NCBI GenBank assembly: GCA_042576705.1
Contig: JBHPEY010000001.1
Location: 1,045-65,044 of the forward strand
Length of the DNA stretch: 64,000 bases
Reading direction: 5' to 3'
Source of the DNA: Nanobdellota archaeon
GTDB taxonomy: Archaea; Nanobdellota; Nanobdellia; Woesearchaeales; UBA11576
Shown: positions 13,936 to 58,324 of the stretch, in pieces
Layout: every line of letters starts with the position of its first letter
How positions within the stretch are numbered: position 1 is the first letter of the stretch
Program-made: the position numbers and the translations under genes
The notes under the pieces: generated by a model
Seen by the model: the letters and a program-made list of their open reading frames with translations, nothing else
What the model was told of the DNA's origin: nothing
Database searches by the model: none

Positions 13936-14406
13936 ATGAAAGAGCTTATCTCTGCGTTGGAAGAGGGTTCTGATGTTGATTATCTTCTTGATACGTGCTT
14001 TGTGTTGTTTATGATTGAGAGAGGTCATACGCATAAGCTTGAGTCTTTCTGTGAGAACAATAAGGTCGGGATGTCTAGTTTCAATCTTGCTGAGATCGAC
14101 CATGTGCATCGTGGGTTGAAAGGGACTGTGAATCATCATCTACGGGATTTCTTGAAGAAGAGGTTGATCGTGAATGTTCTTGTTGATGTGCGGCCTGGTG
14201 AACGGGAGCGGGAGAAGGAATATGTCTCTGATTTTGATGAGGATTTCCTGCGGCTGGTGCGTGATCCAAGTGACGCGGTGCTGCTTGTGCAGGCGTTACG
14301 GCTGCATGCCACTGTGTTGACACGGGACAAGCATCATATATTTACAGCGGTTGCTGAGAATTATGTCGGGCAGTATGGGATATCTGTGCTTAATGATTTT
14401 CCTTAG
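13936..14406 (+). CDS. PIN-domain ribonuclease (VapC-like)
   Basis: The acidic quartet pattern is present: YLLDTCF (D), MIERG (E), DPSDAVLLVQAL (D) and VLTRDKH (D). The track start at 13930 is GTG; the first ATG is at 13936. Confidence 0.75.
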   Translation: MKELISALEEGSDVDYLLDTCFVLFMIERGHTHKLESFCENNKVGMSSFNLAEIDHVHRGLKGTVNHHLRDFLKKRLIVNVLVDVRPGEREREKEYVSDFDEDFLRLVRDPSDAVLLVQALRLHATVLTRDKHHIFTAVAENYVGQYGISVLNDFP

Positions 14407-40798: not shown

Positions 40799-41328
40799 GC
40801 CATATCGAGGTCGAGGTGCGGAGTTTTATTACACGGGAGCAGTATGATACGCTGATACAGTTCTTTCGTCAGGAGTCGCGGGCGTTCTCTGTTGATGATC
40901 AGGTCACTCATTATTTCAATGCGCCAGTCGATGTTCGGATACAGAAGAATTCTTTTGGGTCTAAGATGTGGCTGAAGAAGGGGAAGATGCATGATGAGCA
41001 TCGCGAGGAGGTCGAGGTGCGTTTTGACCGCGAGGATTTTGATAATCTTGAGAAGATGTTTTTGCTTATGGGTTATGGTGTGAAGGTGAAGTGGTTCCGT
41101 AAGAGGCATACTTTCTTCTGGAAGGGTTTTGAGGTGTCTGTTGATGATAACAAGGGGTATGGGCATATCCTGGAGATCGAGAAGAAATCTACATCTAAGG
41201 GTAAGATGAAGGCGTTGAAGGAAGTGAAGGGTGCTTTCAAGAAATTGGGTATTGCTGTTACGCCTAAGAAGACTTTTGATGAGAAGTATCAGTATTATCT
41301 GAAACATTGGGAGAAGTTGACGAGATAG
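40795..41328 (+). CDS. CYTH-domain protein (CyaB-type class IV adenylyl cyclase / triphosphatase family)
   Basis: The N-terminal EVEVR (ExExK-like) strand, REEVEVR and GHILEIE motifs are spaced as in CYTH tunnel enzymes. Confidence 0.7.
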   Translation: MSHIEVEVRSFITREQYDTLIQFFRQESRAFSVDDQVTHYFNAPVDVRIQKNSFGSKMWLKKGKMHDEHREEVEVRFDREDFDNLEKMFLLMGYGVKVKWFRKRHTFFWKGFEVSVDDNKGYGHILEIEKKSTSKGKMKALKEVKGAFKKLGIAVTPKKTFDEKYQYYLKHWEKLTR

Positions 41329-41652: not shown

Positions 41653-41676
41653 GACCCTATAGTTCACTGAATCCAT

Positions 41677-41836
41677 CCCTGCGTAGCATAATGGTGGTGC
41701 GTCCGGCTGTAGCTAATACAGCACCCGCAGACAAGGCACGTTGCCATGGAGGAAAGCGGGACAGCAGTCACCGGAAGGTTGCTGGTTCAAAACAGCGGAT
41801 CAGAAATGGTCTGTTGGGAGATTCCGGCCGCAGGGA
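41677..41836 (+). tRNA. tRNA-Tyr (anticodon GTA) with two introns (anticodon loop ~57 nt; T-loop ~31 nt)
   Basis: The acceptor is CCCTGCG/CGCAGGG with discriminator A, and the D arm is GCAT-AATGGTG-GTGC. The anticodon stem is TCCGG...CCGGA with loop CT-GTA-G[intron]A. The T stem is GCTGG/CCGGC enclosing TTCAAA[31 nt]T. Exons sum to 72 nt. Confidence 0.75.
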
Positions 41837-53534: not shown

Positions 53535-53868
53535 TTTTGTATCTCCTTGGAATGATACGTTACAAAACTCTCTTGTTATTGGGAACCTTTGTTCCTTAGA
53601 GGCGGCCATTTCTTTCAGCATTTTGGATGCTGCAAGCCTTGACATCGTTATGCTCTGCCAAGCGTTTGGCGCCTGAGGGTCTTCACGTTGAAACAGAATG
53701 AGTATAATGTGTTTACACCCTCTGTTTCGGCCTTCCAATTACTTATGTTTCTTAGAGTTGCTCGGTGGTTTATAAGGTTTTCGGTTTTTGTGGTGGTGCG
53801 AGCTGAAGCATAGCAAGGATGTATAGCACCAGATAGCATAATAACGCAAGGAGGGGCTGATTCATGAC

Positions 53869-54015
53869 CGTCCGTGCCCGCAGAGCAAGCTGCCGCCGTA
53901 GCGTAGCGAAGGTGGCTGCTTGCGTGGCCAGACGGAACTTTTGTGAGCGAAGCATTCTAAGCGGAGTACCGGCAGATGCGAAGCATCTGACTGGCTTGCC
54001 GAATCTTTGATTCGG
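53869..54015. repeat. cluster of GC-rich hairpins in a 700-nt ORF-free region
   Basis: A long hairpin pairs gcaagctgcc with ggctgcttgc and is flanked by ccgtc/gacgg. CAGATGC-gaa-GCATCTG spans 53973-53989. CCGAATC-ttt-GATTCGG spans 53999-54015. Confidence 0.5.
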
Positions 54016-54065
54016 GAAGAGAGGCATTACGCGGCCCTTCCGCCGCTTTTTGGGGATTTGATAGG

Positions 54066-54175
54066 GCGGCAACTTCAGTAAAAGGAACTATATCAGGAGA
54101 GTGGCCTGCGGCCTAAAACGATACGCAGATAGTCTTAGAACCTGACTGAGTGGTTGCAGCGACATGGTTCGTGGT
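54066..54175 (+). repeat. module-C element (solo copy)
   Basis: The sequence is gcggcaacttcagtaaaaggaactatatcaggagagtggcctgcggcctaaaacgatacgcagatagtcttagaacctgactgagtggttgcagcg. Confidence 0.7.
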
Positions 54176-54439
54176 TCTGATGGCTCGGGGCTTGATTGCT
54201 GCTGGCTGGGATCGTGATGGCTCAGTTCGTGATTGGCACGGTTTTTTGGTGGAGGCCAGACCCTCTGTAGCCCCTGATAACGCTGTTTTCATAGGTCTTA
54301 GCTGTATTAACAGAAACCTTTTTAAAGGACCAAATTTTAGGTGCGATATGGTCATTAAACCTTTCTACGGCAAATGAGTGCCAAATTGCAGAGTTAACAC
54401 GCGGTAGAGGGAGTACTGGCTTATTCAGCAAAAAAAGGA

Positions 54440-54591
54440 GCCCTGGTAGTGTAGTGGCCTATCATGAAGCCCTGTCGAGGCGTTATGGACAGCATATTAG
54501 CTGTTTCTATCGCCGCATAAAGGCTTCGACCCGGGTTCGACATAAAATGGGTGAAACAGCCCGTTTTCAAACGAAAATCCCGGCCAGGGCG
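54440..54591 (+). tRNA. tRNA-Asp (anticodon GTC) with two introns (anticodon loop ~43 nt; T-loop ~36 nt)
   Basis: The acceptor is GCCCTGG/CCAGGGC with discriminator G, and the D region GTGTAGTGGCCTATCAT is as in archaeal tRNA-Asp. The anticodon stem is AAGCC...GGCTT with CT-GTC. The T stem is CCGGG/CCCGG enclosing TTCGA[36 nt]AT. Exons sum to 73 nt. Confidence 0.8.
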
Positions 54592-54593
54592 TA

Positions 54594-54599
54594 TTTTTT
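54594..54599 (+). terminator. oligo-T run after tRNA-Asp
   Basis: TTTTTT lies 3 nt after the discriminator base. Confidence 0.45.
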
Positions 54600-54627
54600 G
54601 CTTGAAACACTAACATAATGGTCAAAC

Positions 54628-54765
54628 AGGCCGGTAGCTCAGCCTGGAGGAACAAAAACATTTTTCCGGGCAATAGAGCACTCGACTTTTACCTTTCGAG
54701 GAAGAAATCGAGTGGTCGCGGGTTCGAAACAACCTGATAAGGTTGCGCAAGTCCCGTCCGGCCTA
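54628..54765 (+). tRNA. tRNA-Lys (anticodon TTT) with three introns (D-loop ~26 nt; anticodon loop 15 nt; T-loop 23 nt)
   Basis: The acceptor is AGGCCGG/CCGGCCT with discriminator A. The D arm is GCTC-AGCCTGG[26 nt]TA-GAGC. The anticodon arm is CTCGA-CTTTTA[15 nt]A-TCGAG. The T arm is GCGGG-TTCGAA[23 nt]T-CCCGT. Exons sum to 74 nt and introns to 64 nt, giving 138 nt in total. Confidence 0.8.
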
Positions 54766-54790
54766 CTTTAATAGTTCAGGGGAGAAGAAA

Positions 54791-55027
54791 ATGCCAAAAC
54801 AACCAATCCAGCACGTCCTCATCCCAAAACACAAGAAGATTTCTGAAAAAGAGAAAAAAGACCTTCTTGAGAAACATCACATCACTGTCAATGAACTGCC
54901 TTCGATCAACAAGAACGACCCTGCACTCGCAGGCGTCGATGTCGAGCCGGAGGATGTGATCAGGATCGAGAGGGAATCCCCGACAGCAGGGGAGACAGTG
55001 TTCTATCGAGGTGTTGTAGATGAGTGA
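54791..55027 (+). CDS. rpoH: DNA-directed RNA polymerase subunit H (Rpo5)
   Basis: MPKQPIQHVLIPKHKKISEKEKKDLLEKHHITVNELPSI...DVIRIERESPTAGETVFYRGVV is the RpoH pattern. The ATG lies 25 nt after tRNA-Lys. Confidence 0.85.
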   Translation: MPKQPIQHVLIPKHKKISEKEKKDLLEKHHITVNELPSINKNDPALAGVDVEPEDVIRIERESPTAGETVFYRGVVDE

Positions 55028-56507
55028 AAGCTATTCAGACATACTTGTCCAGAAGTTCTTCGAAGGCACCAGCCTCGTCGACTCAGACATAAGCTCATTC
55101 AACAACTTCATAGAGAAAGAGCTCCAGCGGATCGTCGATGCCAACAAGGGCATAGAGCCGACGATTATCCCGCACAATGTCGAGGAGTTCAAGATCAAGT
55201 TCGACAAGATATGGGTCAAGAAGCCTGAGATAACAGAGGCAGACGGGTCGAAAAGGAATGTCTACCCTACAGAGGCAAGACTGAGGAAGATAAGCTATGC
55301 AGCGCCGTGCTTCATCGAGGTGAGCGCACACATCAACGGCGTGCAGAGAGAGAGCTTCACCACGCAGATAGGATCCATACCGATAATGCTCAAGTCAAAG
55401 TACTGCCACCTGTACAAGATGTCCAAGGAAGAGCTGGTCTCTCACGGCGAGGACCCTGCAGACCTCGGCGGATACTTCATAATCAACGGAACAGAGAAGG
55501 TGCTGATCAGCGTCGAGGATTTGGCAGCAAATAGGCTTCTCATAGGCAAGGAGACGATCGGCGTCTCAGAATACAGCGGAAGGATGTTCTCAGAAGGCGC
55601 GTCATTCAAGATACCGCACACGATAGACAAGCTCAAGGACGGGCTTTTCTACCTCACATTCACAAGGGTCCGAAGGATACCTCTCGTCGTGATCATCAAG
55701 GCGCTTGGCCTGACAAAGGACGAGGACATAATGATGTTCATCTCAAAGGAGAGGCAGTTCGATTCAGTCCTGGTCAACCTCTTCGAGTTCGCAGACATAA
55801 AGACCGATGAGGAAGCGATAGACTACGTGGCTAAGAAGACAGGGATAACACAGGCAAAGGAGATACGGATAGAGAGGATGCGGGAGATAATCGACAAATA
55901 TCTTCTTCCTCACCTAGGCACTACACCGAAGGACAGAATATACAAGGCCTACAACCTGTGCAAGCTGTTGAGAAGGTTCATCATGGTCTCTACAGAAGAG
56001 CTTCCTACAGACGACAAGGACCATTATGCCAACAAGAGACTCAAGCTCTCCGGCGATCTGCTCTCAGACCTGTTCACAGTCAATCTGAAGGTATTGATCA
56101 ACGACCTATTATATAATTTCCAGAGGATAGTCAAGAGGGGTAAGTTCCCATCGGTAAAGGTTATCATAAGGGACAAGCTGCTTACACAGAGGATATATTC
56201 CTCAATGGCTACCGGCTCATGGGTCGGCGGAAGGAAAGGAATATCGCAAAGGATACAGCGGCTCAACTATCTCGAGACAATGTCACACCTGCAGAGGGTG
56301 GTCTCGCCGCTGTCAGCATCACAGGAGAACTTCAAGGCAAGGGAGCTGCACCCGACACATGCGGGAAGGCTCTGCTGCATGGAGACACCTGAAGGGACGA
56401 ACATCGGACTGAGAAAGAATCTCGCAGTGCTCGCGCGCGTGTCGCTCGAGACGCCAGAGGATGAGCTGATGAAAAGTCTCAAGAGCCTGGGGCTCAAGTC
56501 AATCTGA
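55020..56507 (+). CDS. rpoB2: DNA-directed RNA polymerase subunit B'' (N-terminal part of split Rpo2)
   Basis: This 495-aa ORF has the archaeal B'' motifs GGYFIINGTEKVLIS, ANKRLKLSGDLL and ELHPTHAGRLCCMETPEGTNIGLRKNLA. Confidence 0.95.
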   Translation: MSESYSDILVQKFFEGTSLVDSDISSFNNFIEKELQRIVDANKGIEPTIIPHNVEEFKIKFDKIWVKKPEITEADGSKRNVYPTEARLRKISYAAPCFIEVSAHINGVQRESFTTQIGSIPIMLKSKYCHLYKMSKEELVSHGEDPADLGGYFIINGTEKVLISVEDLAANRLLIGKETIGVSEYSGRMFSEGASFKIPHTIDKLKDGLFYLTFTRVRRIPLVVIIKALGLTKDEDIMMFISKERQFDSVLVNLFEFADIKTDEEAIDYVAKKTGITQAKEIRIERMREIIDKYLLPHLGTTPKDRIYKAYNLCKLLRRFIMVSTEELPTDDKDHYANKRLKLSGDLLSDLFTVNLKVLINDLLYNFQRIVKRGKFPSVKVIIRDKLLTQRIYSSMATGSWVGGRKGISQRIQRLNYLETMSHLQRVVSPLSASQENFKARELHPTHAGRLCCMETPEGTNIGLRKNLAVLARVSLETPEDELMKSLKSLGLKSI

Positions 56508-56521
56508 GTGGTGATTATAAA

Positions 56522-58324
56522 ATGACTGAAGTCTTTGTCAATAACAAATTCAGGGGAGAAGTCGACGACCCGCAGAGGTTCGTGAGCTCAGTAGTAGAAG
56601 AGCGAAGGAAGAACAACGTCCCTCAGAGCGTCAATGTATTCTATGACGAGAGTTCAGACACAGTATACGTCGACGGAACCAAGGGACGGGTCGTAAGGCC
56701 ACTCATCGTGGTGAAGAACGGCAAGCCTATGATCACAGAGAAGCACATCCAGCAGCTCAAGAAGAAGGAGATAACCTGGGATGACCTGCTCAAACAGGGT
56801 GTGCTAGAGTATCTCGACGCTGCAGAAGAGGAGAATACTCTGGTCGCATTCTTTGAGAAGGACCTTGGTCCTGAACATACCCATCTTGAGATACATCCAA
56901 TCGCGCTGGTCGGGCTCACCACATCGCTCGTGCCTTATGGAAATTACTGCCACTCGACAAAGCTCGCGATCGGTGGGAAGAACCAGAAACAGGCGATAGG
57001 ATTCTACGCAGCCAACTTCCCTGTCAGGATGGACATGGACGTCAACCTGCTCCAGACACCGCAGGCACCTATCGTAGCCACAATCATGCACAAGATATCC
57101 GAATACAATGCCCACCCTGCAGGACAGAACGTCGTCGTCGCAGTCATGGGATACATGGGCTATAACATTGAAGACGCACTTGTGATCAACAGAGGCTCCA
57201 TAGACCTAGGTTTCGGAAGGAGCACATACTATAGACCTGCTATCGCTGAAGAACTTCGGTACGCAGGCGGACTTACCGACGATGTATGCATACCTGACAA
57301 GGACATCAAGGGCTATAGGTCTGAGGTCGATTACAGGTATCTTGAAGAGGAAGGCATAATCTATCCTGAAGCAAAGGTCGGTGAAGGAGACGTCATAATC
57401 GGAAAATCATCACCACCAAGGTTTCTCAGCTCGATGGACGAGTATAATCTCGCTTCCAACATCAGGCGGGAGAGTTCTGTATCATTGAAGCATGGTGAGG
57501 AAGGCGTGGTCGACTTCGTCATGATAACCGAGAACGGCGAGGGCAACAAGCTCGTGCAGGTAAGGCTCAGGGACAGCAGGATACCTGAGATAGGGGACAA
57601 GTTCACGTCGAGGCACGGACAGAAGGGTGTCGTCGGGGTCGTGCTCGACCCATCAGACATGCCATTCAGCGCATCAGGGATAACACCTGACCTGATATTC
57701 AGCCCGCACGGGATCCCATCACGGATGACAATCTCACATCTCATCGAACTGGTAGGAGCAAAGGTGGGAGCGTTGTCAGGAAGGGAGATTGACGGGACGA
57801 CATTCGCAGCAGATGACGAGGGCGACCTCAGGAAAGAGCTGCTCAAGCTCGGCTTCCGAGAGAACGGCACAGAGACATTATACAACGGCCAGTCAGGAGA
57901 GCAGATCTCTGCAAAGATATACATCGGAAACATGTACTATCTCAAGCTGAAGCACATGGTCGCCAACAAGATACACAGCAGGGCACGAGGACCTATCCAG
58001 CTGCTCACACGACAGCCGACAGAAGGACGCGCAAAGGAAGGCGGACTCAGGCTCGGAGAGATGGAGAAGGACACGTTTGTCGCGCACGGAGCGAGCCTGC
58101 TGCTCAAGGAACGATTTGACTCAGATAAAACAGTTGTCCCTATATGCGAAAGCTGCGGCATAATCGCAATCTACAACGAGTTCAAGAACAAGTCATACTG
58201 CCCTATATGCGGGGAGAATGTCGAGATAAACAATGTCGAGATATCATACGCCTTCAAGCTAATGCTCGACGAGTTCAAATCCTTCGGAATCTATCCGAAG
58301 ATGAAGCTTGAGAGCAAATACTAG
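56522..58324 (+). CDS. rpoB1: DNA-directed RNA polymerase subunit B' (C-terminal part of split Rpo2)
   Basis: This 600-aa ORF has the motifs GQNVVVAVMGYMGYNIEDAL, GDKFTSRHGQKGVVG, PDLIFSPHGIPSRMTI, YYLKLKHMVANKIHSRARGP and GGLRLGEMEKD, plus a C-terminal Zn ribbon CESCG...CPICG. Confidence 0.95.
   Translation: MTEVFVNNKFRGEVDDPQRFVSSVVEERRKNNVPQSVNVFYDESSDTVYVDGTKGRVVRPLIVVKNGKPMITEKHIQQLKKKEITWDDLLKQGVLEYLDAAEEENTLVAFFEKDLGPEHTHLEIHPIALVGLTTSLVPYGNYCHSTKLAIGGKNQKQAIGFYAANFPVRMDMDVNLLQTPQAPIVATIMHKISEYNAHPAGQNVVVAVMGYMGYNIEDALVINRGSIDLGFGRSTYYRPAIAEELRYAGGLTDDVCIPDKDIKGYRSEVDYRYLEEEGIIYPEAKVGEGDVIIGKSSPPRFLSSMDEYNLASNIRRESSVSLKHGEEGVVDFVMITENGEGNKLVQVRLRDSRIPEIGDKFTSRHGQKGVVGVVLDPSDMPFSASGITPDLIFSPHGIPSRMTISHLIELVGAKVGALSGREIDGTTFAADDEGDLRKELLKLGFRENGTETLYNGQSGEQISAKIYIGNMYYLKLKHMVANKIHSRARGPIQLLTRQPTEGRAKEGGLRLGEMEKDTFVAHGASLLLKERFDSDKTVVPICESCGIIAIYNEFKNKSYCPICGENVEINNVEISYAFKLMLDEFKSFGIYPKMKLESKY

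What the first reader, a model, noticed from the sequence alone, without database searches (positions are those of the whole stretch)
54440..54765. Adjacent tRNA-Asp (2 introns) and tRNA-Lys (3 introns) with non-canonical D-loop and T-loop introns, abutting the RNAP operon
Both genes fold into complete cloverleaves only after multiple insertions are removed. tRNA-Asp(GTC) has an anticodon-loop intron of about 43 nt and a T-loop intron of about 36 nt. tRNA-Lys(TTT) has a D-loop intron of about 26 nt, an anticodon-loop intron of 15 nt and a T-loop intron of 23 nt.

The arithmetic is self-consistent. The tRNA-Lys exons sum to 74 nt and its introns to 64 nt, giving the 138-nt gene.

Together with tRNA-Tyr at 41677, three of the four tRNAs in this window carry an intron at essentially the same T-loop position (about 58/59-59/60). 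Multi-intron tRNAs with non-canonical positions are established in only a few archaeal lineages, and they require a broad-specificity splicing endonuclease.

tRNA-Lys ends 25 nt before the rpoH ATG. The tRNA pair may therefore be co-transcribed with, or define the 5' boundary of, the RNAP operon.
Basis: partly seen in the sequence, partly recalled or inferred. Interest (0 to 1): 0.6.

Follow-up and report, generated by a model that had tools for sequence, protein, structure and literature searches.

The report
Multi-intron tRNA-Asp and tRNA-Lys genes
Two real transfer-RNA genes (Asp and Lys) of a small uncultured DPANN (Woesearchaeota-type) archaeon are interrupted by two and three short protein-spliced introns; this is a well-supported new example of a known archaeal phenomenon that standard tRNA finders miss.

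Summary
tRNA-Asp(GUC), 54440-54591, has introns of 43 nt (37/38) and 36 nt (59/60). tRNA-Lys(UUU), 54628-54765, has introns of 26 nt (D-loop 19/20), 15 nt (37/38) and 23 nt (59/60).

Removing them gives clean 73- and 74-nt cloverleaves. All five junctions fit bulge-helix-bulge (BHB) geometry in one register only.

The Asp-Lys-rpoH-rpoB arrangement recurs in related genomes. Each of the five introns is absent in at least one relative, with the exons abutting exactly at the predicted junction. Spliced orthologues show compensatory base changes. No intron-less copy exists elsewhere in this 89%-complete genome.

The genome encodes one EndA endonuclease and one RtcB ligase. EndA is colinear with the M. 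jannaschii alpha4 enzyme and lacks the crenarchaeal and Nanoarchaeum specificity loops, so the "broad-specificity enzyme" claim is only partly supported.

59/60 is a hot spot: at least 17 tRNA genes here carry an intron there, as does tRNA-Asp in at least 105 of 301 genomes of the order.

This is a new member of a known kind: 59/60 and multi-intron tRNAs are described in ARMAN-2, Thermoproteales and other DPANN.

The parts
54440..54591 (+). tRNA-Asp(GTC) gene, 152 nt; mature 73 nt, no encoded CCA
   Evidence: The spliced sequence folds as a complete cloverleaf. It is 70/73 identical to an intron-less orthologue (L027 2056-2128) that scores 58.3 bits with Rfam tRNA. Four stem pairs carry compensatory changes across 12 distinct orthologues.
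54440..54477 (+). Asp exon 1 (positions 1-37)
   Evidence: It is directly followed by exon 2 in L003, L004, L006-L010, L012, L013, L017, L021, L026 and L027.
54478..54520 (+). Asp intron 1, 43 nt, canonical 37/38
   Evidence: BHB: H1 5/5, central helix 3/4 (C32.U mismatch), H3 GGCG/CGCC. The intron is absent in most relatives and is 22-43 nt where present.
54521..54541 (+). Asp exon 2 (positions 38-59)
   Evidence: It abuts exon 3 in L015 and L027.
54542..54577 (+). Asp intron 2, 36 nt, T-loop 59/60
   Evidence: The T-stem serves as H1 (5 bp). UUCG(54-57) pairs with CGAA of the intron, 4/4 Watson-Crick. The 3' bulge is AA^U. The 5' bulge lies in a 4x4 internal loop in the MFE fold. Orthologous introns are 17-81 nt, and 14/14 pass the BHB test.
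54578..54591 (+). Asp exon 3 (positions 60-73)
54594..54599 (+). T6 run after tRNA-Asp (archaeal terminator-like)
   Evidence: A T-run at the same place is present in most same-genus relatives. Its function is inferred.
54628..54765 (+). tRNA-Lys(TTT) gene, 138 nt; mature 74 nt with A1-U72, no encoded CCA
   Evidence: The spliced sequence folds as a complete cloverleaf. Nine loci give the identical 74-nt mature sequence despite different introns. 100% of cells are paired and eight pairs carry compensatory changes.
54648..54673 (+). Lys intron 1, 26 nt, D-loop between G19 and U20
   Evidence: BHB: the D-stem (4 bp after an A.A mismatch) is H1, GCCU/GGGC is the central helix, and the bulges are GG^A and AA^U. 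The MFE fold prefers a continuous 11-bp helix that absorbs the 5' bulge. The intron is absent in L015 and L017, where AGCCTGG|TAGAGC is contiguous. 16/18 orthologous introns pass the test.
54692..54706 (+). Lys intron 2, 15 nt, canonical 37/38
   Evidence: CUUU(32-35) pairs with GAAG. The bulges are UA^C and AA^A. H3 is 2 bp closed by a UUCG loop (read directly from the sequence). The intron is absent in L005, L015, L016, L020 and L026.
54729..54751 (+). Lys intron 3, 23 nt, T-loop 59/60
   Evidence: The T-stem is H1. UUCG/CGCA is the central helix, 3/4 paired, with a U55.C mismatch shared by most same-genus copies. H3 is CAACC/GGUUG. The intron is absent in L014, L016, L020 and L025. 16/16 pass the test.
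54779..54784 (+). Shine-Dalgarno-like GGGGAG, 6 nt before the rpoH ATG
   Evidence: GGTG or GGAG occupies the same place in relatives. Its function is inferred.
54791..55027 (+). rpoH (RNA polymerase subunit H/Rpb5), 78 aa, followed by split rpoB (55020-56507, 56522-58324)
   Evidence: PF01191, E=1.1e-23; ORFs listed.

Best explanation
These are the genome's only genes for tRNA-Asp(GUC) and tRNA-Lys(UUU).

[quoted passage not shown] The local tRNA stem (D, anticodon or T stem) provides the outer helix. The four loop nucleotides 5' of the splice site pair with four nucleotides near the 3' end of the intron to make the central helix. The two cuts fall after the second nucleotide of each 3-nt bulge.

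The 59/60 site is the geometric twin of the canonical 37/38 site. In both cases the cut lies between the sixth and seventh nucleotide of a 7-nt loop closed by a 5-bp stem.

The single EndA endonuclease, inferred to be a homotetramer of the alpha4 type, cuts all sites. RtcB then joins the exons, and the CCA end is added afterwards.

Shown here: the gene structure, the BHB geometry, conservation and covariation, and the presence of EndA and RtcB. Inferred: the actual cleavage and ligation, the oligomeric state of EndA, and the order of events.
For: **The spliced products are tRNAs.**
- Spliced sequences give complete cloverleaves.
- Intron-less orthologues are scored as tRNA by Infernal at 58.3 and 70.5 bits.

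**The junctions are where predicted.**
- Each of the five introns is missing in at least one relative, with exons abutting at the predicted junction.
- Intron lengths vary from 0 to 122 nt while the exons stay about 95% identical.

**The genes are under selection as tRNAs.**
- Cloverleaf covariation: Lys has 100% of cells paired and eight compensatory pairs. Asp has 95.6% paired and four compensatory pairs. None of 500 shuffles reached these values.

**The BHB motif is real.**
- 63 of 67 distinct introns pass in the exact register. None pass when the register is shifted.
- In 104 distinct 59/60-interrupted tRNA-Asp T-arms from the order, the central helix is 4/4 paired in 81 and 3/4 in 22.
- In the same set A57 faces T in 57 of 64 cases. 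A C partner occurs only opposite G57, 22 cases against 0.

**The splicing enzymes are encoded.**
- EndA: PF02778 plus PF01974 (101 bits), with the catalytic Tyr/His/Lys aligned to 1A79.
- RtcB: 542 bits.

**These are the only copies.**
- No other Asp(GTC) or Lys(TTT) copy is found in the genome.
Against: MFE folding does not reproduce every BHB:
- Two central helices contain a mismatch (Asp 37/38 and Lys 59/60) and are not predicted.
- The Lys D-loop site prefers a continuous helix.
- The Lys 37/38 site prefers a shifted register.

A strictly specific alpha4 enzyme might therefore not cut all five sites.

The genome is 89% complete, so a second EndA subunit or a second tRNA copy cannot be fully excluded. 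However, relatives at 100% completeness also show a single EndA gene.
Confidence: 0.9

Rival explanations
1. The loci are decaying tRNA pseudogenes that have accumulated insertions such as small repeats or MITEs. On this reading they are not spliced.
For: The intergenic region just upstream (53849-54176) is full of dispersed repeats. The proximal TATA-like motif GATTTATG, found about 27 nt upstream of tRNA-Asp in relatives, is degenerate in this genome.
Against: - The exons are invariant or change only by compensation across genera.
- The insertions sit only at BHB-competent registers.
- None of the five intron sequences has another copy in the genome.
- There is no other gene for these two essential isoacceptors.
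Confidence: 0.02
2. The introns are real, but cutting the imperfect motifs needs something beyond a plain alpha4 EndA. Candidates are a second, undetected subunit, the lysine-rich N-terminal tail of this EndA, or a different nuclease.
For: - Two central helices carry mismatches and one 5' bulge is relaxed.
- Published work ties relaxed motifs to loop-bearing or heteromeric enzymes (PMC3239211, PMC5829648).
- This EndA has a 34-residue Lys-rich N-terminal extension.
Against: - Only one EndA-like gene is found in 40 of 41 relatives, including genomes at 100% completeness.
- The N-terminal tail is not conserved outside the genus. Matches in other families begin at about residue 30.
- Most motifs in the lineage have a 4/4 central helix.
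Confidence: 0.15
3. The tRNA-Lys and rpoH transcripts are independent. The T/A-rich element immediately after tRNA-Lys (CTTTAATAG, 54766-54774) would be the TATA box of the RNA polymerase operon.
For: A T/A-rich element directly follows tRNA-Lys in most relatives across the order.
Against: - In this genome the element starts only 24 nt before the ATG.
- A conserved Shine-Dalgarno-like GGGGAG or GGTG lies between the two. A start site set by that TATA would exclude it from the transcript.
- No T-run terminator follows tRNA-Lys wherever rpoH is adjacent, whereas tRNA-Asp is followed by T6-T8.
Confidence: 0.4

Closest known systems
ARMAN-2 (Candidatus Micrarchaeum acidiphilum) disrupted tRNA genes: pre-tRNA-Cys(GCA) with a 59/60 intron and pre-tRNA-Pro(GGG) with 53/54 plus 59/60 introns (Fujishima et al. 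2011, PMC3239211)
   Same: Both are DPANN archaea. Both have short BHB introns at 59/60 in the T-loop, multiple introns per gene, and a high fraction of disrupted tRNA genes.
   Different: ARMAN-2 uses a three-unit epsilon2 EndA with a specificity loop (ASL), and its Cys 59/60 intron has a relaxed hBH motif. Here EndA is a single about 170-residue alpha unit without the CSL or NEQ loops that I could test. Most 59/60 motifs here have both bulges and a 4-bp central helix.
Multi-intron tRNA genes of Thermoproteales and intron transposition (Sugahara et al. 2008 and Fujishima et al. 2010, as cited in PMC3239211 and PMC4033280)
   Same: Both have up to three BHB introns per tRNA at D-loop, anticodon-loop and T-loop positions, and introns come and go between close relatives. 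Near-identical introns occur in different tRNA genes: here Glu(CUC) and Lys(CUU) share 44 of 45 nt.
   Different: Thermoproteales have a heterotetrameric (alpha-beta)2 EndA with the crenarchaeal loop and a wide spread of intron positions. Here the non-canonical introns are concentrated at 59/60.
DPANN genomes with alpha4 EndA and increased tRNA gene disruption (Kaneta et al. 2018, PMC5829648)
   Same: That paper surveyed a Woesearchaeota genome. It reports alpha4-type EndA in DPANN associated with many disrupted tRNA genes. It also notes that incomplete tRNA sets point to undetected disrupted genes.
   Different: That paper attributes the breadth to an L3 (Nanoarchaeum-type) loop. The EndA here lacks the 6-residue NEQ205 insertion before the catalytic His. 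No gene-level description of these Asp and Lys genes was found in the literature searches.

Membership tests
Archaeal BHB (protein-spliced) tRNA introns | Two 3-nt bulges separated by a 4-bp helix and flanked by helices, with cuts at symmetric positions | tested here: met
   All five sites fit H1/B/H2(4)/B/H3 in one register. Two central helices are 3/4 paired and one 5' bulge is relaxed.
Archaeal BHB (protein-spliced) tRNA introns | Removing the introns restores a canonical, conserved tRNA | tested here: met
   Cloverleaves are complete. Intron-less orthologues are recognised by Rfam. The stems show covariation.
Archaeal BHB (protein-spliced) tRNA introns | The genome encodes the splicing endonuclease EndA and the ligase RtcB | tested here: met
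   EndA at G000:C4 has PF02778 and PF01974. RtcB at G000:C6 scores 542 bits.
Archaeal BHB (protein-spliced) tRNA introns | Spliced mature tRNA and excised (often circular) introns are observed in RNA | not testable with these tools
alpha4-type (homotetrameric) EndA | A single gene encoding one N-terminal domain and one catalytic domain, with no second subunit gene | tested here: met
   The genome holds one 205-aa ORF. There is one EndA gene in 40 of 41 relatives. Extra hits in G005 and G007 are weak and short, and the two hits in G029 are fragments of one gene.
alpha4-type (homotetrameric) EndA | Homotetramer assembly | not testable with these tools
   This is inferred only from the single gene and from similarity to 1A79 (E=2e-33) and to the NEQ205 catalytic subunit (E=6e-37).
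Broad-specificity EndA (loop-bearing: CSL/L1, ASL/L2, NEQ-type/L3) | An inserted basic loop near the active site | tested here: not met
   There is a 9-residue gap against A. pernix alpha at the CSL position and a 6-residue gap against NEQ205 before the catalytic His. The alignment to M. jannaschii is colinear. Loop locations are from PMC3488258 and PMC5829648. The ASL was not examined residue by residue.

The most novel reading that the evidence does not exclude
In Woesearchaeales-type DPANN archaea, a loop-less, single-subunit EndA may service dozens of introns. The T-loop 59/60 site would be the structural twin of 37/38 and act as a preferred landing site for a still-mobile population of BHB introns.

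Supporting observations:
- At least 17 tRNA genes in this genome carry a 59/60 intron.
- tRNA-Asp is interrupted at 59/60 in at least 35% of genomes sampled across 216 genera.
- Two unrelated tRNAs, Glu(CUC) and Lys(CUU), share a 45-nt 59/60 intron at 44 of 45 positions.

If true, intron position and load would be decoupled from EndA architecture, contrary to the usual co-evolution picture.

As a further possibility, RNase Z cleavage of a tRNA-Lys-rpoH co-transcript could create the 5' end of the RNA polymerase operon mRNA.
Probability: 0.35. Interest if true: 0.6.

Novelty: new member of a known kind. Interest (0 to 1): 0.4.

Why it matters
**Annotation.** Standard finders see only about 20 of the roughly 45 expected tRNA genes in this genome. 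Its tRNA set, codon coverage and completeness would therefore be misjudged. The same applies to hundreds of DPANN MAGs.

**Biology.** The locus is a clean natural experiment on intron gain and loss. Five sites in two adjacent genes each have present and absent alleles among close relatives.

**Enzymology.** The lineage pairs a heavy load of non-canonical introns with an EndA that looks like the strict alpha4 type. That makes it a convenient system for testing what really sets EndA substrate range.

Tried and rejected

- ARAGORN with its own intron option (-i) finds neither gene in the native sequence.
- After BHB removal with -i10,140, ARAGORN mis-called Lys as anticodon UUA and missed Asp. 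I therefore removed all introns explicitly instead.
- Rfam at gathering threshold and at E<=1 finds nothing in 53650-54800.

**Corrections to my own coordinates.**
- My first Lys exon coordinates were off by 2 nt at the T-loop.
- They were also off by 1 nt at the anticodon loop.
- Both errors gave the same-length product by coincidence of A-runs. BHB geometry and the orthologues fixed the junctions.

**Limits of the genome-wide screen.**
- It yields many false triple-intron models with introns around 100 nt. Only models with short introns, a TTC T-loop and a high cloverleaf score were kept.
- The genome-wide counts are therefore lower bounds and not a curated catalogue.

**Searches that came back empty.**
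- None of the five Asp and Lys introns has a similar copy elsewhere in the genome.
- A literature search for tRNA genes upstream of archaeal rpoH found nothing relevant.

Full report
**What is there.** The window lies on contig C1 of a 1.70-Mb, 77-contig, 48% GC assembly that is 89% complete. The closest RpoB'' loci come from MAGs labelled Nanoarchaeota or Woesearchaeota, so the organism is a DPANN archaeon.

In 54440-54765, default ARAGORN and Rfam report nothing. Read by hand, the region contains all the parts of two tRNAs, interrupted by extra sequence.

**Gene structures.**
- tRNA-Asp(GTC) spans 54440-54591. Its exons are 54440-54477, 54521-54541 and 54578-54591, 73 nt in all. Its introns are 54478-54520 (43 nt, between positions 37 and 38) and 54542-54577 (36 nt, between 59 and 60).
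- tRNA-Lys(TTT) spans 54628-54765. Its exons are 54628-54647, 54674-54691, 54707-54728 and 54752-54765, 74 nt in all. Its introns are 54648-54673 (26 nt, D-loop between G19 and U20), 54692-54706 (15 nt, 37/38) and 54729-54751 (23 nt, 59/60).

The spliced sequences fold as complete cloverleaves in ARAGORN. Neither gene encodes CCA.

**Splice motif.** I used the standard BHB layout, recalled from general knowledge of archaeal splicing. In this layout:
- the last two exon nucleotides and the first intron nucleotide form the 5' bulge;
- the four exon nucleotides before that bulge pair with intron nucleotides n-5 to n-2;
- the last two intron nucleotides and the first 3'-exon nucleotide form the 3' bulge.

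All five sites fit this layout, with the local tRNA stem as the outer helix.

| Site | Central helix | Paired |
|---|---|---|
| Asp 37/38 | CUGU/GCAU | 3/4 |
| Asp 59/60 | UUCG/CGAA | 4/4 |
| Lys D-loop | GCCU/GGGC | 4/4 |
| Lys 37/38 | CUUU/GAAG | 4/4 |
| Lys 59/60 | UUCG/CGCA | 3/4 |

Plain MFE folding reproduces the Asp T-loop motif. For the others it gives only the outer and inner helices, or an alternative register. The motifs are therefore close to the strict form but not uniformly strict. The 59/60 site has the same geometry as 37/38: the sixth/seventh nucleotide of a 7-nt loop on a 5-bp stem.

**Comparative evidence, which is decisive here.** A DNA search of 40 relatives, plus loci fetched through RpoB'', shows that the Asp-Lys pair upstream of rpoH-rpoB recurs in about 25 related loci, within the genus and in other families of the order.
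- The exons are about 95% identical.
- Intron lengths range from 0 to 122 nt.
- Each of the five introns is absent in at least one relative, with the flanking exons abutting exactly at the predicted junction.
- Nine loci with different introns give the identical 74-nt mature tRNA-Lys.
- Intron-less orthologues are recognised by the Rfam tRNA model at 58.3 bits (Asp) and 70.5 bits (Lys).
- On the spliced orthologues the cloverleaf is kept through compensatory changes. Lys has 100% of cells paired and eight pairs changed on both sides. Asp has 95.6% paired and four such pairs, and its only unpaired position is 13-22. None of 500 shuffles reached these values, and slid registers collapse.
- The BHB register test passes for 63 of 67 distinct introns and for none at shifts of 1-3 nt.

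**Beyond the locus.** A strict pattern for a 59/60-interrupted tRNA-Asp matches 105 of 301 genomes sampled across the order (86 of 216 genera), with no control hits. In the 104 distinct sequences:
- the central helix is 4/4 paired in 81 and 3/4 in 22;
- A57 faces T in 57 of 64 cases;
- a C partner occurs only opposite G57, 22 cases against 0.

This is covariation between an exon base and an intron base, as the BHB model predicts.

**Are these the working genes?** BLAST of the spliced tRNAs against the whole assembly finds only this locus, in exon-sized pieces. The pseudogene reading is therefore very unlikely.

**Splicing machinery.** The genome has one EndA gene (205 aa, N-terminal and catalytic domains) lying next to an RNase Z-like gene, and one RtcB gene.
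- 40 of 41 relatives, including genomes at 100% completeness, also show a single EndA gene. This points to the homotetrameric alpha4 type.
- The protein aligns colinearly with M. jannaschii EndA (1A79), with the catalytic Tyr, His and Lys in place.
- It lacks the 9 residues of the A. pernix crenarchaeal loop.
- It lacks the 6 residues of the NEQ205 basic loop before the catalytic His (loop positions from PMC3488258).

Kaneta et al. (PMC5829648) already report alpha4 EndAs in DPANN together with many disrupted tRNA genes, but they link this to the NEQ-type (L3) loop. I did not find that loop here. Position alone does not require it, and the imperfect motifs may or may not.

**Genome-wide context.** I enumerated BHB candidates, removed one to three of them at a time, and ran ARAGORN on the products. 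This recovers both genes unaided. It also gives at least 25 credible intron-containing tRNA genes, of which 17 carry a 59/60 intron and 14 a 37/38 intron. The window's tRNA-Tyr (41676-41836; introns of 57 and 31 nt) is among them. These counts are lower bounds from a heuristic screen. Earlier notes of this scan on other parts of the same genome (Ile-UAU, Ala-UGC, Trp, Tyr and a 16S intron) reach the same general reading.

**Transcription context (inferred only).**
- tRNA-Asp is followed by a T6 run (54594-54599), which most same-genus relatives share.
- tRNA-Lys is not followed by a T-run wherever rpoH is adjacent.
- The 25-nt spacer carries a Shine-Dalgarno-like GGGGAG (54779-54784), which is GGTG or GGAG in relatives.

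This favours read-through from tRNA-Lys into rpoH, with RNase Z creating the mRNA 5' end. However, the T/A-rich element right after tRNA-Lys could instead be a promoter. I put co-transcription at roughly even odds. RNA data could not be obtained.

**Comparison with what is known, and verdict.** Introns at 59/60, several introns per tRNA, and DPANN genomes rich in disrupted tRNAs are all published (PMC3239211, PMC4033280, PMC5829648). This finding is a very well supported new member of that kind. Three modest points of added interest are the strong 59/60 hot spot, signs of recent intron transfer, and an EndA without the known specificity loops.

Noticed in passing
window 54312-54377: A BRE/TATA-like AGAAAC-CTTTTTAAA (54312-54326) is conserved in nine same-genus loci. 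An ATG (54348) lies 29 nt downstream of the TATA start and opens a 9-codon ORF, MVIKPFYGK* (54348-54377). Most relatives keep it as M-[VA]-I-K-[PS]-F-[YF]-G-[KE]-stop. No T-run lies between it and tRNA-Asp. It could be a leaderless micro-ORF or the start of a roughly 90-nt pre-tRNA-Asp leader.
   Followed up: partly
window 53849-54176: The roughly 700-nt gene-free stretch between the DEAD-box helicase gene and tRNA-Asp is largely built of at least three dispersed repeat modules. Together they have more than 50 copies across the genome at 70-97% identity.
   Followed up: partly
G000:C23:8802-8846 and G000:C29 (minus strand, 14329-14373): tRNA-Glu(CUC) and tRNA-Lys(CUU) carry 45-nt 59/60 introns that are identical at 44 of 45 positions, while the mature tRNAs are only about 66% identical. 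tRNA-Arg(UCU) has an intron with the same ends (AGAACTC...CACGAAAG). This suggests recent intron transfer or gene conversion between different tRNA genes.
   Followed up: partly
window 54592-54627 and the orthologous spacers: In several relatives the Asp-Lys spacer reads as a T-run, a short GC hairpin and then an A-run, for example TTTTTTTCGCC-ACCAC-GGCGGAAAAAAA. This could fold into one long hairpin. In this genome the pattern is weak.
   Followed up: no
L101 50-958 (G000:C4), next to EndA: An RNase Z-like metallo-beta-lactamase gene (302 aa) lies divergently next to the EndA gene, and a macro-domain protein lies downstream. Two tRNA-processing genes are therefore neighbours.
   Followed up: no
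window 54628 and 54764: tRNA-Lys(UUU) of this genus and family starts with an A1-U72 pair instead of the usual archaeal G1-C72. More distant relatives have G1-C72, so the change is compensatory.
   Followed up: yes
G000:C3 (minus strand) 41028-41196: A tRNA-Ile with anticodon UAU and three introns is recovered by the screen. UAU instead of CAU for AUA decoding is unusual but known in some DPANN archaea.
   Followed up: no
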